A DNA stretch of 63,395 bases, filler included, from Folioceros fuciformis (Eukaryota): assembly GCA_049999805.1 (NCBI GenBank). It is 11 parts of 11 records of this genome, joined end to end, with 100 filler letters (N's around TTAATTAATTAA, not from the genome) between each part and the next. Parts side by side here need not be neighbours in the genome. Positions count along the whole stretch, not along the records: positions 41,431 to 52,079 come from JBNGIO010001466.1; 10 more parts are not named here. One strand, written 5' to 3'. The notes beneath the pieces were generated by a model that saw only the letters and a program-made list of their open reading frames with translations, had not been told where the DNA came from and did not search any database. A program made the position numbers and the translations under genes. Positions 7,632 to 57,958 of this stretch are shown piece after piece. Each line of letters opens with the position of its first letter. Positions within the stretch are counted from its first letter, which is position 1.

Positions 7632-8138
7632 GCTTAGCTTGTCGAATCTTTCAGTTTTTTTTTTTTGGCCCTGGATTTGGTTCCAGGTTTGCGGGTAGTC
7701 GAATTTTCTGATTAGTTGTGTAGCTTGCTTGGGAGTAGCCCTTTCTTTTGGGATGCGGGGTTGGAATCTCTTGCACTTTCCTTTTATTTCCTGCTTTCGT
7801 CGCTGATGCGACCGTCTTGTTGTTTTCTGACCTTTGGATTTCCGGATGTAAGCATTGTAGGCTGGCACGTTCGGTTGTCGGTCTTAGAAGCTGAACTTTC
7901 TTGTCGGGTGGGACGGGACGCCTGTGATCTTGTAGAAAGGTTCTCCTGGTTTTTCTCGTTTTCTTGCGTCTAAGCCCTTATGTAGGACTTCTTGTTTTCA
8001 ATCCCGGCTTTTTAGTGTTTTGCCGGAAGGGAGGACTCCTAGTTTTGGTTAGGACGCTCACGATCTTGGAGCTGCTGAAGATGATGAGCGGGGAAGGGGA
8101 GTTTTATTCCAATTTTTACGCTTAGAGTGGCTGGAGAG

Positions 8139-9935
8139 ATGCCCCGCTTTGCTAGATGCGGATGGGGTGCAAGAGGGGGTCCTTTCGTAGGCCCTGTGCT
8201 GCTGATGGTGGTGCTTTATGTCGCGTTTCAAGGTGCTGCTCAGCTATTTTTCATAGAATCTAAAGTGGTGCACAAGTTGCGTGCTTCCAATGTCGTTGGC
8301 CAGAATGCGCTTGCGGTTACAGGTGAGCCAGCCGAGTCCGTTTTGCTTGTTGAGCAAGTCAGGGGTGGTGAGGAAGTCGGTACTGAGGAAATCGTCGTTG
8401 ATGTATCACATGGAATTGATCATGGGCATGATACGACAGAGGATTTTCCGATGTGGCAAGCTGAGACCGCTCTCAAAGTTTTCATGTATGATCTTCCAAG
8501 AGAGTTTACGTACGGGGTGATTGAGCAGTACTTGAGATCTAGGGGGCTCCTTAAGGATGATGGGGAACCTGTGAATGATGCGCAATTGCAATATCCAGGC
8601 AACCAGCACAGTGCGGAATGGCATCTCTTCAGTGATCTGCTCAAGCCTACGGTTTCCAAGACTAATCCTGTGGCTGCGAGGGTTATGAATCCCAGTGAGG
8701 CTGATGTCTTCTATGTCCCATTCTTCTCGTCCCTCAGCCTTCTTGTGAATATGGTTCCCAACCCTCAAAACCCGACGTACAGTGATGAGCAGATGCAAGA
8801 AAAGCTGGTGGCCTGGTTGGAACAACAACCGACCTGGCAGAAAGCAAATGGTCGCAACCATGTTATTATTGCGCAGGATCCAAATGCTCTGCACAAGGTT
8901 AAAGATCGCCTAAAACGAGCGGTACTACTGATCTCTGATTTCGGAAGGATGGTACACGGTGAAGGATCGCTTGTGAAAGATGTCATTCTCCCTTACACTC
9001 ATCGAATAACGTCTTATGAATACGAGAACGCCACTCTGACCAGAGATACACTCCTCTTTTTCATGGGAAACCGTTACAGAAAAGAGGTGAGCTTCAAATG
9101 TAGGCATTTTGTTTTCTTGTGGATTCTACTGCACAAATTACTGGTGGACGATGATGAACAGCATTGTTGCTTGTCATGGTCTTAGGCGGCTGATTGTTGT
9201 GCTGTGTGAAACCAGGGAGGGAAAATTCGAGACGAACTTTTCCAACTCTTGGAGGGTGAGAGTGACATGTTCATCAGGCATGGCACACAATCCCGAGAAA
9301 GTAGGCGCTTGGCCACACAGGGGATGAGGACATCTAAGTTTTGTCTTCATCCTGCTGGGGATACTCCATCAGCTTGCAGACTGTTTGATGCCATTGTCAG
9401 CATATGTGTACCTGTGATCGTGAGTGATGACATAGAACTCCCATTTGAAGATGAAATAGACTACAGCCAGTTCTCCATCTTTGTTTCAACATCAAATGCT
9501 CTCAAGTCTGGATATTTAGCCCGTCGACTTAGGAATGTGAGCAGTGAAAAGCTGATCAAGTACCAGCAGCGAATGCGGGAGGTAACTCAGTCCATCCACC
9601 TTTGGCTTGTTGGCGATGTATCTGTGTAGCCTGTTTCTCGTTGTGTTCCTACCGATTCCTGAGTTCTGACTGAGCAGATGATAACTTATTGCCTGCAGGT
9701 AAGGAAGTACTTCGAGTACGATGTACCAGATGGAGCAATTAATCAGATCTGGCGACAAGTCCACAACAAGGTACCTCTGATGAAGCTGATGATACATCGA
9801 GACAGGCGGATTGTCACCGGTATAGAGCGAGGGGAGGACTGCTCTTGCATTTGCTCGAATGGAAGCGCCCCGCATGTAAGAGGGTTTTCACTTTCGAAGT
9901 TTAAGAACAGAATAATCAAATCTAAAGCTATCTGA
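8139..9935 (+). CDS. Exostosin family GT47 glycosyltransferase (ARAD1-like); join(8139..9086,9216..9581,9699..9935), ~516 aa
   Basis: Type II TM anchor, [62 protein letters not shown]. Introns join in frame. Confidence 0.92.
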
Positions 9936-17955: not shown

Positions 17956-20008
17956 CTAGGAAGACTGCTGGAGGTGGGCATTGGGATTGCTACGGAGAAG
18001 GTGCTGCTGCTGCTGCTGCTGGGCGACATCGGTGCAGGACAAAGGCTCAGACTTGATGATGGCCCCGCGAGGAGAGCTGCCGCTACTAGAGCTGTCAGAG
18101 AAGGAGCCGAAGGTGGCTTTCTGGAGGACACCTGTGGGAGAGGAGGCAAGGCGGGGGCTGTCGCGCGGGCTGTTGTCCCAGCCGTCGCAGAGCAGGTTGA
18201 GGCCGGAGCTCTTGCATGCCCCGCCGGGCGCAGCAGAAGCAGCAGCAGCCGCTGCGGCGGCGGCGGCAGCAGCAGCAGCAGCAGCGGACGCGGAAGCACT
18301 AGCTCCTGCGCCTGCTCCAGCACGGGGCGTGCTGCCCGACTGCAGCACCTCCGCCAGAGGGCCACCCACCGGGGTCTCCCATGTGATGGGGATCCAGGTG
18401 GTCTGGCGATGCCTGTCGTCCGCGCAGCCCACGCCCAGCCCCATGCCCAGCGGGTCCTCCTCCCCGGTCCCGGCCCCGGCCCGCGACATGGACAGCTTGA
18501 GCGGGGACAGAAAGTGCTTGCCTCTGGGTGGGCTTGCAGCCGCCGATGCCGAGGTGGAATTGGGATTGAATCGCTGCTGGTCAGCCATGGGGATGGAAAT
18601 GGACAGCTGCGTGGTGGACGCATTCCGAGAGCTGCTGTTCCCGCCATTGCCGTTGTTGCTTCGCTCCTCTTCCACGTCCGACCAGGACATTGCGGCCGGG
18701 TCCCGACTGGGACGCGGCCAGTCATCGAAGAAGTGGCGGAGGGGCTGGCCCTCGGATTCGCGGCCCACGTTCATACTCTCTACTCCACTCGCGTAGCCGC
18801 CGAATGAGGAGGCTGAGCCCTGTTGGTGCTGGTGTTGGTGTTGTTGGGCTTGGGCCTGGGCCTGGGCCTGGGCTTGAGCTTGCGCTTGCGCCTGCGCCTG
18901 CGCCTGGGCTTGGGCCTGCGCCTGGGCCTGGGCTTGAACCTGCGCCTGGGCCTGGGCCTGGGCCTGCGCCTGAGCCGCCGCAGCCGCAGCCGCCAAAGAC
19001 ATGTTCACCTGCTGCTGCTGGCTGGCGTCTGACATGAAGCCCAGATCCTGGCCCAGAATAGAGCGCATCTGCGAGCTGTGGCTGTGATACTGAAGAAGCT
19101 GCGCCTTGGGCAGCGGCGCCGGCGGCACCTTAGGCGACATGTTCCGCCACGCATTGGCCATGCTCGACGGCAGCATGGACAGATTACCCACAGACTGAGG
19201 ATCCTGACCTAGCCCCCGCGCGCTGCCCGACGCCTCCGAGAAGAGCATCTGCTCCGCTCCCATACCCACTTCCTGCTTAATGTGGGCGCCTAGATGGTAT
19301 CTGCATAACACGCAAACACGAAGGCAAAGCAGGCACGAGCCGGCATTGGTGAGCAGCTCCAGCCACCAAGCAGCAGCGACAACAACGGCAGCGGGCAGTG
19401 CAAGGCAGTGCACGTTCAAGCGAGCTGTGCATCAATCCTCCCAAACTTGGAATGAATCCATATTCTACGAATCCTTGGCACACACACAAGAAACAGGAGC
19501 CACAGAAACGCGAGACGTGAAACACACCTGCTGTTGTTAGCGAGAGCAGAGGGCAAGGGGAACTGCGAGGCCCCGGGCGACGGCGAGCCCGCTCCAGACA
19601 TGTTCATGGAATGGCTGCTGCTTCCATAGGTCTTGGCAGTCAGCGCGGCGGACACAGCCTGGTGCTGAGCTGAGTTGACGCTCATGGTGGGGCGCAGATT
19701 TGAGTGCGACAGGGTGGCCCCGGTGCTGGGCTGCGAGGAGGCTCCCCCGCGGGTGGCTCCCACGCCTCCGGCAGTCGGCGACGTGGTTGAGGAGGCGCTG
19801 GCTCCTGACGCCTGGGCGGAGGAGGAGGACTGGCCGTCCACCGGCTTGCGGGAACGGTGTCGGCCGCGGTGCATATGACGCTCGCAATATTTCTGGTCGG
19901 GCACCACGTCTCTGGAGCATCTCCACTTCTTGCCATCGGTTCTGCGGCATCTGCCGGGCTCCGGGTCCGTGTTGGTGGGCACTCCCAGGTGGAATGAACC
20001 CCATCCCA
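17956..20008 (-). CDS. GRF: Growth-regulating factor (GRF) transcription factor, 5' (QLQ) exons missing at contig break; exons 20008..19528 and 19300..17956
   Basis: WRC domain [44 protein letters not shown]-terminal FFD (LRHFFDDWP), TQL (TQLSISIPM) and GGPL (VGGPLAEVL) motifs. Confidence 0.95.
18846..18975 (-). repeat. Coding hexanucleotide repeat encoding an (AQ)n tract in GRF
   Basis: (GCCCAG/GCGCAG)n giving about 20 AQ dipeptides, preceded by poly-Ala and followed by QHQH. Confidence 0.9.
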
Positions 20009-20280
20009 CTGCAAAATCGCACACAACATACGTGACCCGGGTCAGACGTGGGAGTGTGGCATTCGAGCGTACAATGCCAAATTGCAGGTAAGTGGGAATT
20101 GAAAGGAGGCGCAAAGCAGAAGAAGGGGCAGGAGGAGAATGCACCCGGAAGAATGAGTGGAGGAGTGTGAGCGTGCATTGNNNNNNNNNNNNNNNNNNNN
20201 NNNNNNNNNNNNNNNNNNNNNNNNTTAATTAATTAANNNNNNNNNNNNNNNNNNNNNNNNNNNNNNNNNNNNNNNNNNNN

Positions 20281-25717: not shown

Positions 25718-27220
25718 ATTTGCCAATAGGACAGATACTTGGATGGAAGGCCCAAGAAGGGCAATTGGGAGGAGGAGGCGTACAGTAGAAAAGAGGAGGT
25801 CAGAATGCCTCCATGGAGGGATCTGAAGGGGGACAAGGGACCCCCTGTCCAAGCAGAAGGAGGGTCTGCCGTGGTGACACACAGGGTCAGCCCTGCACTC
25901 GACAGTTGGTGACCCAGGAGGTCAAAAGGTTTCTAGAGACATGAGAAATGCCAGCTGGGTTGAGTAGGGAGGGGAGAGCACTCTTCCTTCACAAGGCAGG
26001 TCCTTACTACTTGAGGAGAGGGGTGTTGTATAAGGTGGGACCTGACGAGAAGATCTGACGATGTTTGGAGCTTGGTGAGGTAACTATGGTAACACTAGCC
26101 TTACACGCTGAGGAGGCAGGAGGGCACTACTTCACACACATAACCATTAAGAAGATTTTGGATGCGGGGTTTTGGTGGCCCACCATACAGAGGGATGTGT
26201 GGGAGTTTGTCAAGAGATGTGATGCTTGCCAAAGGGTGGGGAGACCAACAGCTACAACACAGTGGCCACTTCACTACGTGCTGCCACTTGCTCCTTTTGA
26301 GAAGTGGGGCATAGACTTTGTTGGCCCTATCCGTCCACCAACCAAGGGGACAAGGAAGCAGTACATCTTGGTGGTGACGGACTATTGCACTAAGATGGTG
26401 GAGGCTGAAGCTACGAGGACAAATGATGCAGCCACAATAGCCAAGTTCTTGTTTGAGAAGATCATCACTAGGTATTGCTGTCCATTGGAACTAGTTAGCG
26501 ATAGGGGGACTCATTTCTTGAATACTGTGATTTCTTCTCTAACAAGCTTCTTCAACATCCGACATCGGAAGACCACTCCGTACAACCCCAAGGCAAATGG
26601 TCTGAAGAAGAAGACAAATGGTTTGTTGGGGACCATTCTAACCAAGGTGACGGTCACACACATGTACGATTGGGACACTAAGCTGCACTCCGTGCTATGG
26701 GCATATAGGACTGTTGAGAAGGTGATGACCAAGAGGACACCTTATTATCTGACCTATGGTATGACCTCAGTCCTGCCCATCGAGTTTGAGGTCCCAACTT
26801 ACAGGGTGATAAAGGACAAAAGGCTGATAGTGGAGGAGAGCCAGGAGGCTAGGTTAGAGGCCTTGGTGGGGTGTGAGGAAGATTGTGAAGAGGCCCTTGA
26901 GGAGACCTATAGGGTGCAGGAGGGTAGGAAGCGACTTCATGACAGGAGGTTGAGGAAGCAAGAGTTGGTATAGATAGGAGACCTAGCCTTACTGTATGAT
27001 AGCAGGTACTTAGACTTTCCGGAAAAGTTAAGACTGAGATGGATGGGTCCTTATAGGGTGGAGGAAGTGTATCCCAATGGATCTGTCCAATTGCGATAAT
27101 TGGCTGGTGACCTTCTAACAAGAAGGGTAAATGGTTGGAGGGTCAAGAAGTACTTCGAGACTTAGAGGGGGAGGCCCTCTTGTGTTTGCGAGGACGCAAA
27201 TAGCTGAGGAGGGGAGTATG
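25718..27220 (+). mobile_element. Ty3/gypsy pol remnant (integrase), PPT at ~27206-27216, 3' LTR starting ~27219
   Basis: HHCC zinc finger (LHAEEAGGH...CDACQR), PFEKWGIDFVGP, LVSDRGTHF, GPY/F motif (WMGPYRV). In-frame stops, and the third catalytic Glu is replaced (NGLKKKTN). Confidence 0.9.
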
Positions 27221-38750: not shown

Positions 38751-39161
38751 CCATAAATTGCACTCAATTCTTGTTGGCACATTGTTATTGTGATGCACAA
38801 CTCCATGGAATCCTCATAATCCCTCCCCAAAGATTACCTAATTGCGTAGTAGGCAACTTGATTTTTTAGATGAACAATGTTCCTACACATCAAATTGCTT
38901 ATGTCGTGAAACAAAATGTTGTTTATGGCATTTAAGATATCAATCCCACGACAACATGGCAGGTAGACACTAAATCTTCTCACAAAAGTTTCTCACTCTC
39001 ACCAAAAGGTGTCAAAGCTTTTCATGAATTGGTAAGGAAGAAAGCAATTCATGAATTGGTAAGGAAGAATGCAAGTAATAAGAATCTTAACATTGTCAGT
39101 AATGTTTGCAGGATGTAATACTCCAAGATAATTTGACTTCTAAAATTCAAAACATATCAAT

Positions 39162-40205
39162 ATGGCTCAAGCTCCAGCTATGGAATATAGACATTTAGGC
39201 ACAACAGGTCTGAAAGTGAGCCAATTAGGATACGGCGCTTGGGTGAGCTTTGGAAACCAAGTAGATGCCGGTGCAGCTAAAGGAATTTTGGCAAAATGTA
39301 AAGAGTTGGGAGTGAACTTCTTTGATAATGCTGAAGTTTATGCTGGAGGAAAGGCTGAAGAGATGATGGGGAAAGCCATCAAAGACCTAGGTTGGAAGCG
39401 TACTGATTTAGTGCTGTCTAGCAAAATATTTTGGGGAGGAACTGGTCCTAATGATAGAGGGCTCTCTAGGAAGCACATTATTGAAGGAGTGAAAGGCTCT
39501 TTAAAGAGGCTGGATTTAGAGTACCTAGACTTGGTTTATGCTCATCGGCCTGATAATAGCACTCCAATAGAGGAGACTGTGAGAGCATTTAATTGGGTGT
39601 TAGATCATGGTCTTGCTTTTTATTGGGGTACTAGTGAGTGGTCGGCTCAGCAAATTACAGAAGCTTGGGAAGTTGCTAGAAGGCTAGATTTAGTTGGACC
39701 ATCCATGGAACAACCTGAGTATAATCTATTCTCTCGCGACAAAGTAGAGGTGGAATACTTACCTCTATATGGACACTATGGTCTTGGCTTAACCACATGG
39801 AGCCCTCTGGCTTCTGGTGTGTTAACAGGAAAGTATACAAAGGGCACAATTCCTCCCAACACTCGATTCTCTCTTGAGAATTACAAGAACTTGGCTAGCA
39901 GATCTTTAGTAGACGAAATCCTAAGCAAAGTGGAGCAACTCAAACCCATTGCAAAAGAATTGGGCATCTCTATGGCTCAAATGTGCATTGCTTGGTGTGC
40001 CAGTAATCCGGATGTGAGTGCTATTATCACAGGAGCCACCAATGAAACCCAAGTTGTAGAGAACTTGACATCTCTGCAATGTATTCCATTGATGACTCCA
40101 GAAGTATTAGAGAAGATTGAGAACGTTGTGCAAAGCAAGCCTCGCCGCCCCGACCAGTATCGACGGCCATCTGCTCTTGGAGTCAAGTCTACCGGACAAT
40201 TCTAG
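39162..40205 (+). CDS. KAB1: Voltage-gated K+ channel beta-subunit-like aldo-keto reductase (AKR6), intronless CDS, 347 aa
   Basis: GAWVSFGNQ, FFDNAEVY, GLSRKHIIEG, HRPD, AFYWGTSEWSAQQI, WSPLASGVLTGKY; colinear with plant KAB1. Confidence 0.93.
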   Translation: MAQAPAMEYRHLGTTGLKVSQLGYGAWVSFGNQVDAGAAKGILAKCKELGVNFFDNAEVYAGGKAEEMMGKAIKDLGWKRTDLVLSSKIFWGGTGPNDRGLSRKHIIEGVKGSLKRLDLEYLDLVYAHRPDNSTPIEETVRAFNWVLDHGLAFYWGTSEWSAQQITEAWEVARRLDLVGPSMEQPEYNLFSRDKVEVEYLPLYGHYGLGLTTWSPLASGVLTGKYTKGTIPPNTRFSLENYKNLASRSLVDEILSKVEQLKPIAKELGISMAQMCIAWCASNPDVSAIITGATNETQVVENLTSLQCIPLMTPEVLEKIENVVQSKPRRPDQYRRPSALGVKSTGQF

Positions 40206-41430
40206 CTATACGATTTTTGAGAAGCTTTTCACATTCCCTCACCTCCTTCTTCTTTTGTCCCATCTCTTCACAACTACGGGTAGAAGGAAGAGTTGTGCAA
40301 TGCCGCTCATGCATATGTAGCCCATCGTGAACGGCGTGTGTAGAAGGAACCTTTTGATGGATGGATAGACCGTATGGAGAGACTTGACTGATCCACATCA
40401 CACTCGTGCAGTGCACCCTTCATTCCTTCCTTTTTCCCCTTGCTGTGTGAAGTATACCGAACATGTTTCGTATGCCTTGCAATCCGGTGATGCTGGAACG
40501 GCGAACCCATTCCACTTGTCTGGGACCAACCAGCATGCCAGAGCTCGTGCAACTCGTAAGAGAGGATATGGGAGATGCGTGTTGCAGTAAGTGAGGAGCG
40601 ACTGAGAGGGTGGGCCAGGGAGGAGAGAGACGCCAGGCGCGGAGGCCGGGTGGTGAAGGAATCACTTGATCCATTCGCGAAGAGCAGCGCCTTGACGTAG
40701 CCGCAATCCATGGCAATCGGCGATGTGCAGCCTCGCGGCTCCAGCTTGCGCCCTTGTCGCCTTGCGAGTCCTAGGGCTGGCAAAGTGGCGATGGCGGGGA
40801 TCCATGTTCCCGGGCCCCAGGCTTGGCTCTCAGGCGCCTGCGTCTCTCTCCTCTCTCTCCACCCCCACCCCGCATGTATGTAGGTACTGTACATACTCCC
40901 GCAACTGCTCCTTCGGCTGACTTCTGCGCCCTGCCCGCGTCCCGTAATGCCGTATCCTCTTCCCCACTCTCGCCCCTGCATTTCAAGGGCAGCGACGTGC
41001 GGCCGCTGCTGTTCGCCGGGAGCTGCTGTCTACGGGACGCGTTCACTGTCGCAGGTTCGTTCTGCTCGCTCAGGCCGTCTGTGTGCCGGGCGTGCCCCCA
41101 TCACACCCTCTGTAGTCTGCACTGTCGCAGTCAGTGCCTTGTTTGTTTTTTTGTTTGTGGGTTCACGTCCTTGTCATGCCCCGCTGTGGACGGAGTGTTG
41201 GAGACTCTGAGCTGTGGGTTTGTCGGCCCGCCCTGGACCGCTGGTTCGGCGAATCGGCCTTCGCCGCCCTCAGCGGCTTGTGATTTAGTGTAGGAATTGA
41301 ATGCGCTCAGGCCCGCTGGGCGCACCAGCGNNNNNNNNNNNNNNNNNNNNNNNNNNNNNNNNNNNNNNNNNNNNTTAATTAATTAANNNNNNNNNNNNNN
41401 NNNNNNNNNNNNNNNNNNNNNNNNNNNNNN

Positions 41431-42754: not shown

Positions 42755-43563
42755 TCATTGTCGATACAGGGTCCCATTTGGTACGTTGTCCCATTGGGGG
42801 GTACCGCATTACCACTCATGATGGAGTTTGGGATGTCATGTTCTCAATGGCTGGGGAGTGTGGGTTTCTACAGAATGTCATGTTCTCAATGGCTGGGGAG
42901 TGTAGGTTTCTTCTGTAGAAGGAGCGTTCGTATACTTTGCGCAATGAGGTTTCACTTACAGCCGACCTTCTTTTCACTAGGGGGGAACAGGTTTGTGTTG
43001 CTGATTTGGTTGTTATGGATTGCACTAAGAATTCGATTTGCGAGCACTTCATCGTCAACCCCCCTGAATGGGCGGCAGAGGGTTGTGCAAGTGCCGAAGT
43101 CCATAAGTATTCTCCCTTGCAAGACGGACATACTTTCATCCTCCTTGCTCTTGAGACTCATGGGGCTATAAGCAAGCACCTTTCAAGGTTTACTAAGGAG
43201 TGCGCCAAGGTTTATCAGAGCAATAGGAATGGTGTTCTCCCTCTTTCCTTTGTGGTGGCCTTCTTTCGACAACGTGTATCCATTGCTTTACAATAAGCAT
43301 TGACCAATGCGCTTTTTACAACAGCAACAAGTGCAGGTCAAGTGACTTCTTCTACAACGGTGGTAGATAGGCCTTTTGTTATACCACATCATGACATTTT
43401 GGGAATAGTAGATAGTTTTTGAAAATGATATTCGTAGGAGCTAGTAGCCCTTTTTGCCTTTGGCCCTATACTAGCTCCTTCTTGCCTTTGGTCTTACTCG
43501 GGTTGTTCTTCCAATCTGTGGAGTAGAAAGGACTTTCCATCTCTTTTTTAATAATAGAAAATA
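42755..43563 (+). mobile_element. Non-LTR retrotransposon 3' end with restriction-like endonuclease (CRE/R2-group-like), decayed
   Basis: Zinc-knuckle end DTGSHLVRC...THDGV, ADLL..VADLVV, AEVHKY, FILLALETHGA, QRVSIALQ, then a 3' UTR ending aataatagaaaata. Confidence 0.7.
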
Positions 43564-43689
43564 CTTACATGTATAAATATATAGTATATTAAATAATTAA
43601 TATAATATTTAATAGACTGTTAAATAATATTGACTTATCACATTCTTAGGAAGTTGGAAAGGTTTTGAAATACTAACGTTATTTGAATC

Positions 43690-44460
43690 TGAGTCGGAAT
43701 CTTGCACTGACGTAAGGAATTCCGGCGGCATTGGGAGTTAACAGCCATCTCGCAATGGGCTTGAGGGTCTAGCAGGTACTGGAATGTTAGACGAAGACTG
43801 GAGCAACGGGACCTATCTCACGTGTGTCCTGAAACAGATCAACACGGGCATCCATAGCCATGTGCTATTGTATGTTGGCTAGTCTGGAGGTTATCAACTT
43901 CGATCCAACTACCTCCAGGATGACATACCTCAAAGCATCGGCAATCTCACGTTTCTGCAGTAGCAGGTAGTTCTTATGTATGGGAGACCGTTTTTCGACG
44001 AGTGGTGTTCTCCTGAGATCGGCTTCTGCTTCCTACTTTTGTGGCTTAATAAGAGCAGTCACCAGCTCGTACATGGACACGTCCCCGTATTCATCCCTGA
44101 CCTCACGCAATCTGCCCTATTGGATGCCAATATCAAGGTCTTGTCGTCCGGCAGTCTCCATCCGCAGGTTATCTCACGATGCCACGTGCTGCATGACGTC
44201 CTCTGCTTCAATCAAATCTCTGGACTGATCACTTCCCTCGTTTCCAGTAGAAATTGCTCTGCTCTTCATTCATGATATGAAGGCGCCCTGATTCTCTGAG
44301 ATCTTTGGAGTTTGTGCTTCGTTGGCGACTACCTCAGACTTCCAATGAAGCAAGCGTAGGGTAATTTGCTGGTGCTGTTCACGTCAATTTGTCTGGCTGC
44401 TTGCCACTATTGGGCGTGTTTCCTTCCATCCAGGGATACATGTAGCGTGCGATCACCCCA
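43690..44460 (+). pseudogene. Decayed leucine-rich-repeat ectodomain sequence upstream of the kinase ORF
   Basis: Fragments LASLEVIN/RSNYLQDDIPQSIGNLTFLQ* and SGSLHPQVISRC...FNQISGLI, with frameshifts and stops. Confidence 0.6.
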
Positions 44461-44499
44461 GTGGAATGCTTCCTGTCAGCTACTATCTCGAACCGGGAC

Positions 44500-45729
44500 A
44501 TGCAGATGGATCCCACAACGAGCTATCAGGTGCCATACCAAGGACAGGAACCAGTTACGGCTTTCCCTCCTGGTTCAGGCGTCACCGGGATACGTGCGTT
44601 GAGTGCATCAGCCATCGTGGCCATTAGTCTTGTTATCCTTTTGTTTATAGGTGTGGTCTTGGTCGCCGTAATGAGCTTGCGAGAGAAAAAAAGCGGCGGG
44701 AAAACAAGATTTCAGTTGCATCAGAAATCAACACCTGAAGTATCTTCTTCCTTCCATTCAGTCGTAGGCAAATTGGTCCTCTTCAACTTGGATCGTCTTC
44801 CTGACCGCCTCGACGATATGGACGAACGGACTAACACTCTAATTCACAAGGATGGCTTTATCGGTCATGGGCCCCTGGGGGCCACCTACAAAGCCAGTTT
44901 TCAGAGAGGCAAGTTTGTTGTTGTGAAGGAGCTTCAGACCTTAGGCAGAATCAGCACTCAGCGAGAGTTTGAGCACGAAATAAACAGGCTGTGTACGCTG
45001 AAGCATCCTAATTTGGTGCCTCTAGAAGGCTATTACTGGTCATCTTCGATGAAACTTCTTCTGTCAGAGTATATTCCTAATGGCAGTCTTCAACATCACC
45101 TCCATGAAAGGGGCCCATGCGTTCATTTGGGTTGGTCACGAAGATGCGGTATCGCCCTAGGTGTTGCTAAAGCCCTTGCTTATCTGCATTACGGGTGCAG
45201 GCCTCGAGTTCTGCATTGCAACGTCAAAGCTACCAACATCCTGCTAGGAGAGAGCTTTCACCCGTATCTCTCGGACTATGGGCTTCTGAAACTCTTGCCT
45301 CTGACGGGGTTACGCATTTCTGATCAACCGTTTCACACAGCCTTAGGCTATGTGGCTCCTGAGCTTGAGAGGCATCCTACACGGCTGAGCGAGGAATGTG
45401 ATGTTTATGCTTTTGGAGTCTTGCTGATGGAGATGATATCAGGCCAACAGGCTGTCATCCGAAGCGGCACACGGGTGATGCAGCTATCTCATTACATGAG
45501 AATGAGAATCGGGCAAGGCAGGGTTAGAAGATGTGTAGACTCTCAGCTTTTGCAAGAAGATCAAGCGCGCGAAATTTTACGTGTTCTCAAGGTGGCTCTA
45601 TTATGTACAAGGGAGCTGCCTTCCAAGAGGCCTACCATGACACAAGTGGTGGCCATGCTACAGCCAGTTACTGAGTTCGGACCATCTTCATCCACTACAT
45701 CCCTTGATCCCTCTCTTGAAACGTTTTGA
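44500..45729 (+). CDS. LRR-VII (IRK/PXC2/At1g12460-like) transmembrane pseudokinase lacking an ectodomain, 409 aa from first ATG
   Basis: TM LSASAIVAISLVILLFIGVVLVAVM; LRR-VII hallmarks GKLVLF, TLGRI, LEGYYWSSSMKLLLSE; HCNVK in place of HRD, SDYG, ALGYVAPE. ORF is uninterrupted. Confidence 0.8.
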   Translation: MQMDPTTSYQVPYQGQEPVTAFPPGSGVTGIRALSASAIVAISLVILLFIGVVLVAVMSLREKKSGGKTRFQLHQKSTPEVSSSFHSVVGKLVLFNLDRLPDRLDDMDERTNTLIHKDGFIGHGPLGATYKASFQRGKFVVVKELQTLGRISTQREFEHEINRLCTLKHPNLVPLEGYYWSSSMKLLLSEYIPNGSLQHHLHERGPCVHLGWSRRCGIALGVAKALAYLHYGCRPRVLHCNVKATNILLGESFHPYLSDYGLLKLLPLTGLRISDQPFHTALGYVAPELERHPTRLSEECDVYAFGVLLMEMISGQQAVIRSGTRVMQLSHYMRMRIGQGRVRRCVDSQLLQEDQAREILRVLKVALLCTRELPSKRPTMTQVVAMLQPVTEFGPSSSTTSLDPSLETF

Positions 45730-46607
45730 AGGTTTTGAACTGTACTGATGACAATGAGCCAAAGTATGGCACCTTTCTACCTACTAGCCTAAACATTTTG
45801 TTGATAAGCACATCATGTGAGACACTAGGTTGAGTTTGCGCCTGGAAGCCTCGTGATAATCATCCAATCAATCATCGTGTTGCAGTTCCGTTTGATTGAT
45901 TGATTGATGATTGATCAACACGATGATTGATCAACACAATCATTCTGTTGCACACAATCTTCCCAGGAAGAAACGTTGCACTTCTTTGCTGAATGTCAAT
46001 GTAGGTGATTGTCCCACGGTTCTCTGTATCAAGTCTTGCAGGCTCGTCACATGTGCGCTTTACGAAATTGAGCGACGGAAGCTTCCAGCCGATGGACTCT
46101 GGGAAATTTCTCTACCGAGAACTCTGCGTCTTTAGCCTCTGGGGGTGCTGACCAGTTCCCCAACGAAGCTTTCCTTCACCGGCACCCCGAGGTACCCTTT
46201 CCCCACACTTTCTGCGACGAGGAGCCTATCAAACAAATTTCCCATTGGATGGCTTCGTGACGTCGGGGAGCTTCCCAATCCAACTCTTGTTACCCAACAA
46301 GTAGAGTACAAAAGGTGGGCATGGTATGCTATTTATGTAGAACGAGAAATGCTGCCGTCTCGTCGACTGCCACACTGTCGAGACACACCTGCAGCATAAG
46401 TCTAGCCAGATGGTTTTCCCTGGCCCACCCTGCTCGGCAGAATTGCGCGTTAGCAACGACCCAAGTCTTGATACCCTCGTAGAAATGCTGACGGCTCCGG
46501 GACCTCTGTTCACACTAAGCTTCTAAAGTTCGAAAGTCGTTTCTTCGTCGGACATCGATGAGGAACCGGGTTGCTGAGTATCCGTGTCCGCGCAGCTGAC
46601 AGCAACG

Positions 46608-49345
46608 ATGTGGCTCTGGTCGCTTCTGCTGTTGTACTGGCTGCAACTCACGGTCTCTGGGAAGTTTCGTGTGAGTGGTAGCACGCCTGGAGACGTCTTT
46701 CTGGATGAGCTAGAGAGGCAAGTGCTGAGCATCGCAAACCAAGCCGTGATCAATGACGCTATGGCTTGCTGTAGGTGTTGTGGTCCCTTGTTCAACCTTT
46801 CGCGTTTTCTTGTGGCTTCTAGCGATGTCGTTAGTCACCAGGGGACCTTGTGGTTTGTGAGCATGCAGCTCTGGTGGCATCATGTCAATGTTCTCGAGGC
46901 GCCTGTGCGCCTCTGATCGACGATTTCTCGAGCTATGAGTGTGGCTTTCTGCTCAACAACTCCGCCTGCAGTTCCATAAGCAGTCAACCTTGTAATAGCC
47001 ATAGAGTTTTACTGGACACGGCTTTTGTAAGGTTAGTGTACGAAGGAATGGCTCATCTGCTGCCTCTCTTCTACCTAGGTTTCATTATGACGGCTATGAT
47101 CTCTGAGATATTTGTGACGCTGTTCTGCCTTTAGCAGAACGTTCTGGCTAAATGTGGAACATTCTGCTTGCTGGTTGGGGTTGATGCAGGACTCCCTCAA
47201 ATGATACTGATCCTCTGTCAATACAGATGCGGAATTCCATTTGCAGTCAGCGGGTACTGGATCGAACATTTTTGGATGTGTACAATGAGCAAAAGGACCA
47301 GCAATATGTCTTTGCAATTTACTTTGGGTCCTTTGAGGGTTCCTCCCGGATCTATCCAGGACAAGTAAGAGCCCTTGCCAGAATGCTTTATTTATATTCT
47401 GGTACAAGCCTTTACCCTTCTTGATAGGTTTGGGAAAGAACAGACTTCCTGTCATCTCATGGGAAGCCTATCCAACTTGTTCAGGTGACCAACGGCTGTC
47501 GGGGCTATGATCCACGAGTTAGGCCTTGGTACGTTGCAAACCTAGCTCTTCGATTTCTAAGCTTGTGCCCAAGCTTTTACTCAAGCCACCTATATTCTGT
47601 TATGGACCATGTCCAGAATGTCCCGCGTTGAGAACTCTCAAGCTCTGGACTTCATGCGTCAGTTGTCATTGGCCTAAGATATATGAACTGTTGGGGTTTT
47701 CAGGTATAGTGGAGCCATATCAGTGGTCAAAGACATTGTTGTGCTTATCGACAATGGACCTTCCATGGGACAACAATCAAATGTCAGTCAGAAAATACTT
47801 ACTCCTTTCGCTGGTGCTCAGGAAGTCGCTGTGAATCTACTGAACACACTCACTCAATATGATCGTGTAACTGTCATGACAGTTTCCGATTCAACTCTTT
47901 CTTGGACATCAGTAAGACCCATTTGTCCTTAACTGTGAGATAATTATTTTGCTTCTGGTTCCATGTAGTACCTGGCATATGTGGTCATGAAAACTGTGCA
48001 TGTCGTTCTGGGAAGCTTCTTCACTTTTTTCTGCAACGCTGCTCTTGCCCAAACTGATATGTAATGGGGTTGTGGGTGTTCTAGTATACTGTCTTGGATG
48101 ATTACTTGGATACGGAGGATCCTCTGTTCAAGAGCTTGGTTCTATCAGTACAGAATGCCACTGTTGCGAACATGACGTCGTCAAACATCACAGCAGCCTT
48201 GATGGAGACTGTCCCAGTTTTTCACAGTTCCAAGCCTGGGTCTCTGAAGGTACGCTTCATCCTGGCTACTCCATCTTCTGCCGTGAAGTGTGGCCCTCCT
48301 GAACCATGCAAGTTTCCACATGCTGCTGCAGATTATTTTGCTCTTGACAGACGGATCGTCCCCATCGTCTCTAGCAGACTTTCTTCCCGTCGTTGATCAG
48401 CTGCAAAAGAACATGGTTCGATTGTTTATCTACCAACTTGGGAACAAGGATGCAACACTCAGTGCCGTTGCTTGTGAGGTCGAGGGGTACTACGAGGAGC
48501 TAAGCCTACAACAAGTGGAAAATCCTCTCTCTGCTTTGAGATCCTATTACAGCTTCTTGGCTCGATCTCACATCTCAGTATCAAGCAACGTATTCTGGCA
48601 ACCTATATACACAGATTATGACCTTCAGACGGAGATCATAACCGTTGCTGCCTCTGGTATCCCTCGTCCACCTTCTGGATATCCTATTGTTACATCTCTG
48701 CACCTGGCCTCAACTAATCCACCAGCGTGGGACTCTAGAGTTTGACTAACCACGGGGTACATACGTCCTCCGCATGCCAGCTTTATCCGCAGATGGGCAC
48801 CTCATTGGAGTAGCAGGAATCGATGTCCAAATAGCGGGCCTCGACCGAGTCGACCAACAGCTTGTCGAAATCAGCCTTGCAGCAAGGAGCAATGGCTCCT
48901 TTCTGAATACTGAAGCTACCATAAATGAGTGTAGTGTGGTGAGGGCGACACCACCCTCCAGTTCCACACTCTTCCATCAATTTGACGAACACTTTTCCGA
49001 CAACGTGAAATCTTTTGTGTTTTGCAGGCTAAAGCTACTGAACTAGACTGCGGGAATAGTTCCATCGTTGCAATCTGCCCACAAACCGACACAAAGCACA
49101 GCTTCAAGGACCTGGTGTGCTGTGAGGAGTGTGGGGGAATGGCGTTGCGTACTTCCAAGGCTTCTCTTTCTAGAACCGTCATCATCGTCGTCGTTGTGTG
49201 TGCCGTGGCTGCATTTTTAACGGCCCTCAGTATCCTCTTCTGGGCCCGAAGGTCCCTCCTGAAGCTGTCTTCCCTCGGTAAACCCAGCTTTCAGGCAGAC
49301 GTATCATTTCAGCCAACCGCTTCTGATTCCAGCGCCAGGCTTTAG
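46608..49345 (+). CDS. alpha2delta/CACHD1-like VWA + Cache type I membrane protein; join(46608..46770,46869..47031,47190..47364,47485..47528,47704..47911,48085..48249,48332..48656,48781..48938,49028..49345), 572 aa
   Basis: Signal peptide, Cys-rich N-terminus, IYFGSFEG..RIYPG, YDPRVRPWY, VWA (KDIVVLIDNGPSM...IILLLTDG), FWQPIYTD, LIGVAGIDV, C-terminal TM and short tail. All 8 GT-AG introns give one open frame. Confidence 0.85.
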
Positions 49346-49750
49346 TTCCAACTGTGTGTAGGAATGAAGTGTTCCACCTCTTGCATACTTGAACATAAAT
49401 TCAATACTGGGTAGACATTTTACCCGCTGTTCTCCTGAAACTGTCCCAGCCTTGCTGCGCGTCGTGGACTTGCTGAATTTTTGCCACCTTAGCTGGGCTA
49501 TTTGCCACGAAACTAATGTTTATCGTTTTTTTGTCCACTCTTATGAAGAACTTAATTCGTACCAAGTTTGGATACACCCGATAACATCAGTTTTGTTTCC
49601 TATTATCTTTACAAAACTTTGATTTCATACTGATTATACATGGCTGCAAGGGTCCCTATGAGTCGAGGCTGTTCTTGATTTGTGCCAAGCCCCATGAAAA
49701 CGAAGACTATGCCATGCCAACCGTGCTATTTTGTTGAACGACATTTTTCA

Positions 49751-49836
49751 TGAGTGGACGGGAGAGGAGAAGCAAGGAGGGTAGGACTAAGAATGAGTGG
49801 ACGGGAGAGGAGAAGCAAGGAGGGTAGGACTAAGAA
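49751..49836. repeat. 43-bp perfect tandem duplication
   Basis: tgagtggacgggagaggagaagcaaggagggtaggactaagaa twice. Confidence 0.85.
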
Positions 49837-50041
49837 TTGTAAGAGTACCTAAGTATGACACATCTGCACACTACTAGGGCTTTTGTATTTCTTGTACTAT
49901 TCCTATATGGAAGAACAACATCATTGGTGCGGTGATTTCAACAGTTTTTCTCTTCAAGGACAAGATCATGGATGTGGCACTCTCCTTTAAAGTGCACCGC
50001 CTCCTCGTTGTGTTCAGGTTGTTGGTTGAAAGTGTTTCTCG

Positions 50042-50130
50042 CAAGTCAAGTTCTTCAACATATTAGGTACGTGCACAACATCTCCAAGTCAAGTTGTGCA
50101 TGTACCTAATATGTTGAAGACCTTAACTTG
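50042..50130. repeat. Inverted repeat / hairpin with 38-bp arms and 13-nt loop
   Basis: caagtcaagttcttcaacatattaggtacgtgcacaac versus gttgtgcatgtacctaatatgttgaagaccttaacttg (3 mismatches). Confidence 0.85.
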
Positions 50131-50134
50131 GTAT

Positions 50135-50650
50135 GTCCTTTTTAGCTTGACCTTGCTACTCCTCTTGGGGACTTGCTATTCCTCTTGGGTCTTCCTTTTT
50201 AGCTTCGACTTGCTACTTCTCTTGGGTCCATTCAGCATAGTCTTGCTACTCTTCTCAGGTCCTCCTTTTAGTTTGGACTTCTACGTCTCTTGGGGTCGGT
50301 TTAGCATAGTCTTGCTACTCTTCTTGGTCCTCCTTTTAGCTTGGACTTGCTAATCCTCTTGGGGTCCGTTTAGCATAGTCTTGCTACTCTTCTCGGGTCC
50401 TCCTTTAGCTTGGACTTGCTACTCCTCTTGGGGTCCATTTAGTGTAGTCTTGCTACTCTTCTCGGGTCCTCCTTTAGCTTGGACTTGCTACTCCTCTTGG
50501 GGTCCGTTTAGTGTAGTCTTGCAACTCTTCTCGGGTCCTCCTTTTAGCTTGGACTTGCTACTCTTCTCGGGTCCCCCTTTTAGCTTGGACTTCTACTCCT
50601 CTCGAGTCCTCCTTTTAGATTGGACTTGCTACCCCTCTTGGGTCTGTTTA
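50135..50650. repeat. Minisatellite with ~34-35 bp units and a dimeric higher-order pattern
   Basis: Alternating cttgctactcttctcgggtcctcctttagcttgga and cttgctactcctcttggggtccgtttagtgtagt. Confidence 0.85.
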
Positions 50651-55724: not shown

Positions 55725-57958
55725 TCAGAGGTCTGACTGAACAGAGTGGATAGGGTTGAGAATGGCGTGAGGAGGCAGACTGGGGCTTGTAGCGGTCTGT
55801 GTGGCAGCTGCATGTAGGACCTCCAGAGCAGGGCTGCCAGACTTGACGGTTCTGGGAGTCTTGTATTGGCTGCTGCCACTTCCCATCTGCACAGCAAGGC
55901 GGGTCAACTTGTCGAAGGTCCCAGTCTCCACGACTTTTAGCTGCAGGGGACCAACAGTCCCGATGTTGCGTCCCCTCCTGTAAGGCTCGGCCAAGGCAGC
56001 CTCTATGGCCAGACACGCCTCCTCCAACCTCTCGGTACCTACTTTAACCTGGGCTGGGAGGTTGCCCGACGACCATAGCTCCAGGAAGATGACGTAGCTC
56101 CCTGGGATGGAAGACGTGTCCGTGCAGCTGGTGAAGTCTAGCAGCTTTGTCTCTGCCGGGAAGTGGAGCTTGGCAGCAGTGTTCACCGCCTGCACAATCT
56201 CTTTCTCCTCTGTTTTGTCTGTGTTGATGCTCAGAATGACGTTCCTGCGACCCACATACTGGAACTTGGGCGCTTTGTGGTAGAAGCCAGCACACTTCAG
56301 CATGTCTCCTACTCTGAACCTCCATAAACCTGCATTCACCAGCGACAGTGCGGAAACGGTTTTGGGATTTCAACAACTTGTTTCTCCAGCGGATTTATTT
56401 ATGAAGCACGTACGAAATTAAAAAACACGATGCGATCTATGTTAAGCCCACGATCATGGCCGAGAAGGAGTAGAAGAGAGCCTACCGCAGTGGGTGGTTA
56501 CCACTAGCTCATACTCCTGCCCTTCTTCAACATCCGCTAGACCTACGACATTCTTGCCGCTGTCCGACTCGGGGGTGCCACTTGTTTCCTCATCTCTGTT
56601 GAGCAGTAGGAACTCAAAGTAAGCTTGATCTGGATACAGAACGAATGTGGTCTCGTGCGGTGGACTGGTTACATACGGGTTGCATCCAAAAGCTCCCTCG
56701 GAACCTCCATATCCGGAAGTCACAATGGGAAGCTGGCTCCCGCTGAGGAAGTTGAGATAATCCACATACTGAAGCATGGAGCCGGTTGCAATACAGGTGA
56801 TCAACTTAAGATTAGGCCATAGGCGGAGCAAGATCCCCTCCCACGACTCCTTCCCGCACTCCGCCCTGATAAAACTGGCAAGCTCGGGATTTGGCTTGCC
56901 CAGAAGCTCCGACACAACTGCACGAACTGGAGGGTCGGTAATCTTGCTGCTGAGCTTCCCTGTCTCAATGTCATGGCTGAGTTCCTCCCAATTCTGTTTC
57001 AGAATGTTCATTGCGGTGGCCACACCGGATGCAAACCAACTTCCCAGGGAAACTGCTTCCGAGGCCCGAAGCAGGCCGCAGACGAGATGGCAGTACATGC
57101 TTTGCTGGAAATCAAGGCAATGCAGGACCTCCGGCGGACTGACGAAACCTTCGGTGATCTTGCCAAGGCTACCACGTCCGGCGCGTTTGAGCATCGAGCA
57201 GGTCGCTGGCCCGACGGGCAACCCTGTCGGGCTTTTGAATTGCTGACCGGCAGAAACAAAGATCAGCACCGGTACAGTCTTTCCAAATGCCCTGCAACAC
57301 CTTGGCAGTGATCAGGTCCCCAACTTCACACGCACGGCAATTCATGCCTCTGTTATCACGACCCGCGGAGGTCGTGAAAATCCAACGCACAAATGTTTGA
57401 GCAACGCTTACAGGAAGGAGAAACTGGAAGGAACGCATATCGTCCTCTCCAATTGCTCGAAGTAGGACTGCGTGATGGGAAACAACTTGCGCTTCCCGGT
57501 ACTCGTCCCTGAGCTGCACACTCTCAAGAGTTACGTGTCGCCATCGCACGACGTGTGCAAGCAGCAACCGTGGAGTAGAGGTGCATTCACGGTTTCACCT
57601 GTCGCCCCCGATCCTGATTCATTCCTGTGCACTTGAGCTGTACTAGTGGTAGCAGTACAGAATACACCTACCTTGCGAAGAACTCGAGAACGGGATCACA
57701 AGTGAGTATTGGCGAAGGGTGGCCTTGCATCATCCTCTGGACGTCCTGCTCGATGGCGTCATACTCGATCACAGGAATGTGTTGCTTGAAGGACTCTGAG
57801 TCCGTCCTACCATGGAGCCCGTGTCTCTGCAGGTACTCGCATCCCGAGTGCTTTGCCAGCACGTGTTGCAGAAATGCTTCCTGCTCCTCCACAGACCTCT
57901 CCAGCCGAGCGTGATACTTGGAGACGATTTCCTCTGGTTCCGTCATCCCCGCAAGCAT
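55725..57958 (-). CDS. GH3: GH3 acyl-acid amido synthetase; exons 57958..57672, 57513..57412, 57291..56486, 56329..55725, 599 aa
   Basis: SSGTSTGKRKLFP, QSMYCHLVCGL, LWPNLK, TGSMLQY, YGGSEG, YELVVTT, GLWRFRVGD, LSINTDKT, QYKTPR. Exons join in frame. Confidence 0.93.

What the first reader, a model, noticed from the sequence alone, without database searches (positions are those of the whole stretch)
46608..49345. Intact plant alpha2delta/CACHD1-like surface protein with a complete dCache amino-acid-binding motif
Seen: splicing nine exons gives a 572-aa protein with signal peptide, VWA inserted in a Cache module, one TM and a short tail. It has YDPRVRPWY (split by an intron, so invisible in the ORF track), WQPIYTD and GVAGID. 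Established: these are the Y-R-W-Y/Y/D residues of the dCache_1 amino-acid-sensing motif shared by bacterial chemoreceptors and animal Ca-channel alpha2delta subunits (the Leu/gabapentin pocket), a family reported missing from flowering plants. Inference: a kinase-less, receptor-like extracellular amino-acid sensor in a seed-free plant. The MIDAS is imperfect (DNGPS rather than DxSxS), and the protein is about half the length of animal alpha2delta.
Basis: partly seen in the sequence, partly recalled or inferred. Interest (0 to 1): 0.8.

Follow-up and report, generated by a model that had tools for sequence, protein, structure and literature searches.

The report
Plant Cache-VWA amino-acid receptor-like protein
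This is an intact, spliced land-plant gene for a kinase-less surface protein built like the front half of the animal calcium-channel subunit alpha2delta, with the conserved amino-acid-binding residues in place; it belongs to a family already reported from non-flowering plants.

Summary
Nine exons (46608-49345, + strand) give a 572-aa type I membrane protein. One contig of a public run joins all eight GT..AG introns at exactly these borders with no mismatch. The motif is YDPRVRPWY (Y175, R180, W182, Y183; the W182 codon is split by intron 4) plus Y399 and D429.

A profile of 29 plant relatives matches solved alpha2delta-1 at E 1.6e-35, with every motif column aligned. It also matches CACHD1 (8e-16) and the bacterial amino-acid sensors PctA/B/C (2e-6 to 8e-4). 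The motif residues are among the best conserved columns of the family.

The protein has a single Cache module carrying a VWA domain. It lacks the second dCache and has no kinase. Its nearest relatives are liverwort receptor kinases with the same ectodomain (41% identity).

Gumerov et al. 2022 already reported this class in Archaeplastida, its absence from angiosperms and a streptophyte kinase version. It is therefore a new member of a known kind.

Open points: amino-acid binding is inferred, not shown. "Seed-free" is untested, and gymnosperms also have the family.

The parts
46608..49345 (+). Whole coding gene: 9 exons, 572 codons plus TAG
   Evidence: Built. All 8 introns are bridged by one contig of run X1 with 0 mismatches.
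46608..46770 (+). Exon 1. Start codon, hydrophobic N-terminus (residues 1-18, putative signal peptide), N-terminal helix region and first Cys (C54).
   Evidence: An in-frame stop lies 30 nt upstream of the ATG (the stop-to-stop ORF starts at 46578). The signal peptide is judged by eye only.
46869..47031 (+). Exon 2. Cys-rich stretch; C60, C62, C67 and C96 are invariant in the family.
47190..47364 (+). Exon 3. First half of the Cache distal module (the 'VWA_N'-type region). It includes S161 (47344-47346), which is equivalent to alpha2delta-1 Ala217.
   Evidence: Weak Pfam VWA_N hit, E 0.047. Profile alignment to alpha2delta-1. Family columns.
47485..47528 (+). Exon 4 (44 nt). Encodes VTNGCRGYDPRVRP plus the first two bases of the W182 codon. 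Y175 is 47506-47508 and R180 is 47521-47523.
   Evidence: The acceptor before 47485 is taken from the contig joint 47364->47485. Coordinates.
47704..47911 (+). Exon 5. Completes W182, then Y183, then the start of the VWA domain with the MIDAS loop D198-N-G200-P-S202 (47750-47764).
   Evidence: Pfam VWA_2 hit, E 0.014. Also.
48085..48249 (+). Exon 6. Middle of the VWA domain. S284 sits at the MIDAS Thr position, and there are three NxS/T sequons.
48332..48656 (+). Exon 7. End of the VWA domain (T312-D313-G314) and return into the Cache module. Contains W395, Y399 (48608-48610), D401 and T410.
   Evidence: Pfam VWA_3 and VWA hits, E 0.005 and 0.018. phmmer gave 31 family hits. Also.
48781..48938 (+). 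Exon 8. Cache strand LIGVAGID with D429 (48822-48824), then the start of the membrane-proximal stalk.
49028..49345 (+). Exon 9. Cys-rich stalk (C475, C484, C498, C499, C502), transmembrane helix at about residues 517-540 (49175-49246), 30-aa Ser-rich tail, and the stop codon.
   Evidence: Hydropathy and Cys positions. The contig ends at 49440.

Best explanation
The gene encodes a type I surface protein of the eukaryotic 'single Cache module with an inserted VWA domain' class. This is the same module that forms the first dCache_1 plus VWA of animal alpha2delta and CACHD1.

Proposed mechanism:
1. (Inferred) A free L-amino acid or a close derivative is held in the membrane-distal Cache pocket.
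2. (Inferred) R180, W182 and Y175 bind its carboxylate. D429 and Y399 bind its amino group.
3. (Inferred) The residues around the side chain differ from alpha2delta-1. The gate position is small (S161), so specificity should differ and bulky side chains may fit.
4. (Inferred) The protein has no kinase and only a 30-aa tail. It would therefore act as a receptor-like protein that passes on or modulates the signal through a partner. The likeliest partner type is a receptor kinase of the same family, as found fused in liverworts.
5. (Inferred) The VWA domain has a weakened MIDAS (DxGxS), as the CACHD1 MIDAS is described as disrupted, and would serve as the protein-contact face.

Shown: the gene, its splicing, the homology, the position of the motif and its conservation. 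Inferred: the ligand, the pocket geometry and the partner.
For: Gene and splicing:
- One contig joins all 8 introns.

Relatives:
- WIN versus the Marchantia paleacea 910-aa receptor kinase: 41% identity over WIN 1-502, E 5e-109.
- WIN groups with a hornwort kinase-less form and 3 liverwort kinases at support 99/97.

Homology to known sensors:
- The profile of 29 family members hits alpha2delta-1 at E 1.6e-35, with YD.R.RPWY, W..vY and GvaaiD aligned column for column.
- It also hits CACHD1 (8e-16), PctA (2e-6), PctB (1.8e-5) and PctC (8e-4).
- The parts before and after the VWA each hit bacterial Cache sensors separately.
- Pfam MCP-like_PDC_1 matches 11 of 29 members and dCache_1 matches 7 of 29.

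Conservation (15 rows including WIN):
- R180 13/13 and Y399 15/15 are among only 25 invariant columns of 453.
- W182 12/13, Y183 12/13, D429 14/15, Y175 9/13 (the rest are F).

Motif and pocket:
- 29 residues lie between Y399 and D429, inside the 27-34 range of Gumerov 2022.
- R at the carboxylate position marks amino-acid rather than amine sensors.
- 7 of the 13 alpha2delta-1 pocket residues listed in the gabapentin cryo-EM preprint are identical in WIN by alignment, including all that hold the amino and carboxylate groups.

Fold of a homologue:
- The Atlas model of the moss homologue matches alpha2delta clusters at TM 0.52-0.55.
Against:
- Single exons alone hit nothing in the PDB.
- Pfam dCache_1 stays below its cut-off in every member (best 25.8 bits against 45).
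- Pfam dCache_1 matches are shown for four members (P0033, P0002, P0024, P0029) and none goes beyond model position 162 of 240. There is thus no sequence evidence for a membrane-proximal Cache module.
- Six of the 13 pocket-lining positions differ from alpha2delta-1.
- Some family members have a degraded motif: F for Y in 4, W->F in 1, T for D in both Sphagnum. Amino-acid binding is therefore not essential to every member.
- In alpha2delta-1 the pocket is closed to solvent, and the role of amino-acid binding in eukaryotic members is unknown.
- No partner is identified, and no whole genome is held in which to look for a kinase paralogue.
Confidence: 0.5

Rival explanations
1. It is an adhesion or co-receptor scaffold, not a sensor. 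The Cache-VWA ectodomain binds other surface or wall proteins, as CACHD1 bridges FZD5 and LRP6. Any amino acid in the pocket is a fixed structural ligand rather than a signal.
For: CACHD1 binds FZD5 and LRP6 through non-pocket surfaces. The alpha2delta-1 pocket is closed to solvent, with L-Leu or gabapentin buried. The VWA domain and 16 ectodomain Cys are conserved. Some relatives have lost motif residues.
Against: The motif residues are among the most conserved columns of the family, which argues that the pocket matters. In the liverwort forms the same ectodomain is fused to a kinase, which is the layout of a ligand receptor. The MIDAS is weakened family-wide.
Confidence: 0.27
2. It is a truncated, kinase-less derivative of a Cache-VWA receptor kinase. 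It acts mainly as a decoy or negative regulator of the full-length kinase by competing for ligand or partner.
For: The nearest relatives by identity and by tree are receptor kinases. No kinase lies downstream (relaxed tblastn, best E 4.5), and the contig ends 95 nt after the stop codon.
Against: Kinase-less forms of about 590-660 aa occur in a hornwort, mosses, a fern ally and liverworts, so they are an old, maintained class rather than a recent truncation. The tree is unrooted, so the direction (kinase gain or loss) is not settled. Whether this genome has a kinase form is unknown.
Confidence: 0.15
3. It is an auxiliary subunit of a voltage-gated calcium channel, like animal alpha2delta.
For: Homology to alpha2delta-1 at E 1.6e-35. 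NCBI names the moss homologue 'alpha-2/delta-4-like'.
Against: Land plants are reported to have lost four-domain Cav/Nav channels (passages read in PMC6509283 and PMC11085791). The second dCache_1/VGCC_alpha2 part is absent. The perfect MIDAS that alpha2delta-1 needs for channel binding is absent.
Confidence: 0.03
4. It is a decaying or non-functional gene copy.
For: It lacks the kinase of its nearest relatives, and a retrotransposon integrase lies in the window.
Against: The 572-codon frame across 9 exons is intact and all splice sites are canonical. A spliced contig is identical to the genome. Every invariant family residue examined is kept.
Confidence: 0.04

Closest known systems
Eukaryotic single-dCache_1AA proteins with a VWA insertion, and their streptophyte Ser/Thr-kinase version (Gumerov et al. 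2022, PMC8915833). Examples found here: Marchantia paleacea Mapa_014331 (910 aa) and Riccia fluitans R1flu_023753 (912 aa).
   Same: Same ectodomain. WIN is 41% identical to Mapa_014331 over WIN 1-502. It has the same AA_motif columns, the same DxGxS MIDAS and the same Cys pattern, and falls in one clade at 99/97.
   Different: This protein ends 30 residues after the membrane helix, with no kinase domain. It has Ser where most relatives have an aromatic residue at the gate position.
Kinase-less plant homologues. Examples: Physcomitrium patens XP_024386779.1 (595 aa, named 'alpha-2/delta-4-like' by NCBI), Nothoceros 603 aa, Psilotum 590 aa, Sphagnum 657 aa.
   Same: Same length class and layout: signal peptide, Cache(VWA), Cys-rich stalk, TM, short tail.
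   Different: Only 29-35% identical. The moss protein has F for both outer Tyr of the N-part of the motif, while this one has the full motif.
Alpha2delta-1 (CACNA2D1; PDB 6JP8, 7MIX, 8FD7)
   Same: The VWA is inserted at the same place in a Cache module. The profile match is E 1.6e-35 over chain 131-472. The motif residues align with Y238, R243, W245, Y452 and D493, and also with D454 and T463.
   Different: About half the length, with no second dCache_1 or VGCC_alpha2 region. It has a TM helix and tail. The MIDAS is DxGxS, not DxSxS. Six of 13 pocket-lining residues differ. Its host lineage is reported to lack Cav channels.
CACHD1 (PDB 8S7C, 9EQ6)
   Same: Type I membrane protein with a VWA in a Cache module and an imperfect MIDAS. 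CACHD1's MIDAS is described as disrupted in PMC6231325. Profile match E 8e-16.
   Different: CACHD1 has two dCache domains plus the FZD-interaction domain and is about 1100-1290 aa. Its intact AA_motif lies in the second dCache. Here the motif is in the only, VWA-bearing, module. No CACHD1_C match was found.
Bacterial dCache_1AA chemoreceptors PctA, PctB and PctC (PDB 5LTX, 5LT9, 5LTV)
   Same: The profile hits them at E 2e-6 to 8e-4 over the YxxxxRxWY region. The Arg that binds the ligand carboxylate is the same.
   Different: They have no VWA insertion, they have a clear double module, and their output is a cytoplasmic signalling domain.

Membership tests
dCache_1AA (amino-acid-binding subclass of dCache_1, Gumerov 2022) | AA_motif YxxxxRxWY ... 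Y[x27-34]D at homologous columns | tested here: met
   The residues are Y175, R180, W182, Y183, Y399 and D429, with 29 residues between the last two. The columns align with the alpha2delta-1 motif in the profile alignment. The motif definition was read.
dCache_1AA (amino-acid-binding subclass of dCache_1, Gumerov 2022) | Cache/PDC fold of the ligand-binding (membrane-distal) module | tested here: inconclusive
   Only sequence evidence is available. The profile hits alpha2delta-1, CACHD1 and PctA/B/C. MCP-like_PDC_1 matches 11/29 members and dCache_1 7/29, but dCache_1 is below its cut-off. The Atlas model of the moss homologue matches alpha2delta at TM 0.52-0.55.
dCache_1AA (amino-acid-binding subclass of dCache_1, Gumerov 2022) | Double module (distal plus membrane-proximal Cache) | tested here: inconclusive
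   Of the dCache_1 matches shown (four members), none passes model position 162 of 240. About 87 residues with 6 Cys lie between D429 and the membrane helix. No model is available.
dCache_1AA (amino-acid-binding subclass of dCache_1, Gumerov 2022) | Binds amino acids | not testable with these tools
   Needs thermal shift or ITC on the purified ectodomain.
Eukaryotic single-dCache_1 with VWA insertion (Gumerov 2022) | One Cache domain interrupted by a VWA domain between the N and C parts of the motif | tested here: met
   VWA hits lie in exons 5 and 7, between residues 183 and 399. The parts of the profile before and after the VWA hit bacterial Cache sensors separately. There is no second Cache region.
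Alpha2delta calcium-channel subunits | Second dCache_1 (Pfam VGCC_alpha2) into which the first is inserted | tested here: not met
   No VGCC_alpha2 hit in any exon or in any of 29 relatives. The match to the alpha2delta-1 chain covers only 131-472 of 1046.
Alpha2delta calcium-channel subunits | Perfect MIDAS (DxSxS) used to bind the channel (alpha2delta-1 and -2) | tested here: not met
   The site is DNGPS. G at this position occurs in 11 of 13 rows. The requirement was read in PMC9901441.
Alpha2delta calcium-channel subunits | A four-domain Cav channel partner in the same organism | not testable with these tools
   No whole genome is held. Passages in two papers state that land plants lost these channels.
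CACHD1 | Two dCache domains plus a C-terminal FZD-interaction domain (Pfam CACHD1_C) | tested here: not met
   No such Pfam match. The protein is 572 aa, against 1102 aa for the solved chain.
Streptophyte Cache-VWA receptor kinases | Cytoplasmic Ser/Thr kinase domain after the membrane helix | tested here: not met
   A stop codon follows 30 residues after the helix. The contig ends at 49440. No kinase similarity lies downstream of 49200 (best E 4.5). The only kinase ORF in the window is upstream and of LRR-RLK type.

The most novel reading that the evidence does not exclude
Non-flowering land plants keep a cell-surface amino-acid perception system built on the universal Cache amino-acid pocket. 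It comes in kinase-fused and kinase-less versions that work together. It is independent of calcium channels and of glutamate-receptor-like channels, and it was lost in angiosperms. This member has a small gate residue (S161, where most relatives have Phe/Trp/Tyr) and would be tuned to larger ligands than its relatives.
Probability: 0.3. Interest if true: 0.7.

Novelty: new member of a known kind. Interest (0 to 1): 0.38.

Why it matters
Animal alpha2delta is a major drug target, and the role of its amino-acid pocket is still unclear. A half-size plant relative keeps the pocket, in a lineage reported to have no Cav channels. This shows that the Cache-VWA module has a life of its own.

It would be a simple system for asking what amino-acid binding does to such a protein. 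For plant biology it points to a possible surface receptor for amino acids. That receptor was missed because flowering-plant models lack it, and it can be tested genetically in Marchantia or Physcomitrium, which carry relatives.

The class itself is already in print, from sequence analysis only. In the library searched I found no paper that studies a plant member experimentally. Only Gumerov 2022 holds both 'dCache' and 'Streptophyta', and no paper holds VWA, receptor-like kinase and Marchantia together.

Tried and rejected
No fold search could follow.
- The Atlas does not hold P0050, P0033 or P0034. Only the moss homologue P0037 could be searched.
- The search for homologous proteins with exon 7 and 'longer' lengths found nothing. 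The exhaustive phmmer search then found 31 hits.
- Exons 5 and 7 alone against PDB sequences gave no relevant hit.
- No whole genome is held. A kinase paralogue, Cav channels and the species could therefore not be looked for.
- No RNA holder is listed for the stretch. Run X1 is only guessed to be RNA. Two other runs of the same study held next to none of the words.
- My first model with the acceptor at 47428 (591 aa) was rejected. The contig uses 47485, and the relatives have no 19-aa insert there.
- The idea that the upstream kinase ORF is the split-off kinase of this receptor was rejected. It is 33% identical to the family's kinase but 43-52% to LRR-RLKs, and it lies upstream, not downstream.
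- No kinase remnant lies downstream.
- Rfam found nothing in 43500-50500.
- Earlier scan notes by place and by sequence returned nothing.
- The supplements of Gumerov 2022 (Dataset S3, Fig. S16) are closed. They may already list plant members of exactly this type.
Full report
**Gene model.** The region was read and all frames listed. Joining nine open stretches at GT..AG borders gives one frame.

My first model took the most upstream acceptor for exon 4 (47428) and gave 591 aa. One public run holds 54% of the sampled words of 46400-49600, close to the exon share of that stretch. When it was laid, a single 4693-nt contig matched with no differing letter. It skipped exactly eight segments with GT..AG ends:
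- 46771-46868
- 47032-47189
- 47365-47484
- 47529-47703
- 47912-48084
- 48250-48331
- 48657-48780
- 48939-49027

These are the joints, after the stated cut shifts.

The run is only guessed to be RNA. Still, a contig that removes eight canonical introns is most simply a spliced transcript. It ends at 49440, 95 nt after the stop codon. At the other end it runs more than 2.6 kb beyond 46400, which I could not see.

**Protein features.**
- The N-terminus is hydrophobic (MWLWSLLLLYWLQLTVSG).
- There is one strongly hydrophobic segment at about 517-540, followed by a 30-residue Ser-rich tail.
- The ectodomain has eight NxS/T sequons. The protein has 17 Cys, 16 of them outside the membrane.
- Taken alone, the exons give only weak Pfam hits: VWA_N E 0.047 in exon 3, VWA_2 E 0.014 in exon 5, VWA_3/VWA E 0.005/0.018 in exon 7.

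**Relatives.** An exhaustive phmmer search with exon 7 against 1.84 billion representatives gave 31 hits at E <= 0.001.

Of these, 16 carry an organism name directly or through a cluster member. Fifteen are non-flowering land plants: Riccia, Marchantia, Physcomitrium, Psilotum, Nothoceros, Ginkgo and Cryptomeria. One is a lamprey VWA-repeat protein. The other 15 are unnamed fragments. A further search added Riccia sorocarpa, Marchantia paleacea, two Sphagnum species and one more Marchantia polymorpha protein. No angiosperm appeared.

The spliced protein, handled only inside scripts, aligns as follows:
- Marchantia paleacea 910-aa protein: 41% identity over residues 1-502, E 5e-109.
- The two Riccia 912/916-aa proteins: 38-39%.
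- Kinase-less proteins of 590-657 aa from Psilotum, Sphagnum and Nothoceros: 33-35%.
- The kinase-less 595-aa Physcomitrium protein: 29%.

The three liverwort proteins carry a protein kinase domain after the membrane helix (Pkinase E 1e-46 to 2e-48). In a maximum-likelihood tree of 15 ectodomains, the window protein sits with the hornwort protein and the three liverwort kinases (support 99/97). The tree is unrooted, so gain or loss of the kinase cannot be told.

**Homology to alpha2delta.** A profile of 29 family members (A1) was searched against all PDB sequences:
- Alpha2delta-1 chains: E 1.6e-35, profile 65-399 against chain 131-472.
- CACHD1: 8e-16.
- Bacterial amino-acid sensors: PctA 2e-6, PctB 1.8e-5, PctC 8e-4, and a diguanylate cyclase sensor 1.3e-6, all on the part before the VWA.
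- A histidine-kinase sensor: 5.8e-5, on the part after the VWA.
- Ordinary VWA domains came after these.

So a VWA domain sits inside a Cache module, at the place seen in alpha2delta. In the printed alignment the family's 'ydpRiRPWY' lies on alpha2delta-1 'YDVRRRPWY', 'WtpvY' on 'WTNVY', and 'Gvaaid' on 'GVMGVD'.

Gumerov et al. 2022 define the motif as YxxxxRxWY ... Y[x27-34]D (passages read). In the window protein it is Y175, R180, W182, Y183, Y399 and D429, with 29 residues between the last two.

**Is the pocket under constraint?** I used an alignment of 15 rows (the window protein plus 14 relatives; one near-duplicate Sphagnum row was dropped). Only 25 of 453 well-filled ectodomain columns are invariant, and the mean per-column identity to the window protein is 0.38. 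Within this alignment:
- R180 (13/13) and Y399 (15/15) are invariant.
- W182 12/13, Y183 12/13, D429 14/15.
- Y175 is 9/13, and the rest are Phe.

The gabapentin cryo-EM preprint lists 13 pocket residues of alpha2delta-1 (passage read). By the alignments, seven are identical here:
- Y238/Y175
- R243/R180
- W245/W182
- Y452/Y399
- D454/D401
- T463/T410
- D493/D429

Six differ:
- W207/A151
- V209/Y153
- Y219/I163
- W225/about T169 (loop, uncertain)
- A455/Y402
- L456/D403

The retained ones are those that hold the amino and carboxylate groups. The changed ones line the side chain.

The position of alpha2delta-1 Ala217 is Phe in alpha2delta-3 and -4, where it blocks bulky ligands (review passage). 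Here it is S161. It is aromatic in 7 of the 13 relatives that cover this column. The conserved Arg separates amino-acid from amine sensors. All of this is inference from alignment.

**What it is not.** It is not a full alpha2delta or CACHD1.
- No VGCC_alpha2 or CACHD1_C match exists in it or in 29 relatives.
- The PDB match stops at chain residue 472 of 1046.
- The protein is half as long.
- The MIDAS is DxGxS, and G occurs in 11 of 13 rows, so this is a family trait rather than decay. S202, S284, T312 and D313 are kept.
- CACHD1 is also described as having a disrupted MIDAS.
- Two papers state that land plants lost four-domain Cav channels, so a channel-subunit role is unlikely.
- Whether a membrane-proximal Cache module exists is open. 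The Pfam dCache_1 matches shown, for four members, end at model position 162 of 240.

**Fold.** The only fold-level evidence is indirect. The Atlas's own model of the moss homologue (pTM 0.70) matches alpha2delta clusters at TM 0.52-0.55 over about 385-414 residues, and its feature search lists CACHD1 and diatom/haptophyte VWA clusters.

**Surroundings.** The window is land-plant DNA. It carries a GBF1-type Sec7, GT47, WRC, an aldo-keto reductase, GH3 and a retroelement integrase.

Upstream on the same strand, and 878 nt before the start codon, a 427-codon stop-to-stop ORF (44446-45729) encodes a short N-terminus, a membrane helix and a kinase domain.
- Its best relatives are LRR receptor kinases, at 43-52% identity.
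- It is 33% identical to the kinase of the Cache-VWA receptor kinases.
- It has HCN for HRD and DYG for DFG, so it is probably a pseudokinase.
- No LRR exons were found in the window.

I read it as an unrelated neighbour. The long contig may simply merge the two transcripts. No kinase similarity lies downstream of the gene. Rfam finds nothing in 43500-50500.

**Novelty.** Gumerov et al. 2022 (passages read) state four things:
- dCache_1AA proteins occur in Archaeplastida but not in angiosperms.
- In all eukaryotic dCache_1 proteins a VWA is inserted.
- Many protists and invertebrates have a single-dCache_1 form.
- In some Streptophyta the module is fused to a Ser/Thr kinase.

NCBI already names the moss homologue 'alpha-2/delta-4-like'. 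This gene is therefore a new member of a described class.

In the held library only that paper contains both 'dCache' and 'Streptophyta'. No paper holds VWA, receptor-like kinase and Marchantia together. I found no experimental work on a plant member. The paper's supplements, which may list such proteins, were closed.

Earlier notes of this scan describe VWA-in-dCache proteins in Asgard archaea from other genomes. I did not test them.

**Verdict.** The function is a reasonable but untested inference, and the thing belongs to a known kind.

Noticed in passing
window 44446-45729 (+): A stop-to-stop ORF of 427 codons encodes a short N-terminus, a membrane helix and a kinase domain with HCN for HRD and DYG for DFG, so it is a likely pseudokinase. 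Its best relatives are LRR receptor kinases (43-52% identity), but no LRR exons are detectable in the window. It ends 878 nt before the Cache-VWA gene on the same strand. The spliced contig of run X1 runs on upstream far enough to include it.
   Followed up: partly
window 47428-47484 (+): An alternative in-frame acceptor before 47428 would add 19 residues just ahead of the motif. It is not used in the one contig seen, and relatives have no insert there.
   Followed up: yes
proteins P0033, P0002, P0032 (liverwort Cache-VWA receptor kinases): All three have HSD instead of HRD in the catalytic loop (non-RD kinases). From memory, this trait is linked to pattern-recognition receptors in plants.
   Followed up: partly
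window about 41330-41430: A run of N (an assembly gap) shows up as X in the ORF translations.
   Followed up: no
window 49750-49837 and 50172-50500: There is a perfect 43-bp tandem duplication about 400 nt after the stop codon, and a 69-bp repeat of 4.8 copies further on.
   Followed up: no
window 2565-6338 (+), 8088-9182 (+), 19419-20228 (-), 26059-26970 (+), 39144-40202 (+), 56457-57311 (-): Other coding stretches by Pfam, in the order of the coordinates: GBF1-like Sec7 ARF-GEF, exostosin GT47, WRC-domain protein, retroelement integrase, aldo-keto reductase, GH3. Together they mark the window as land-plant nuclear DNA.
   Followed up: partly
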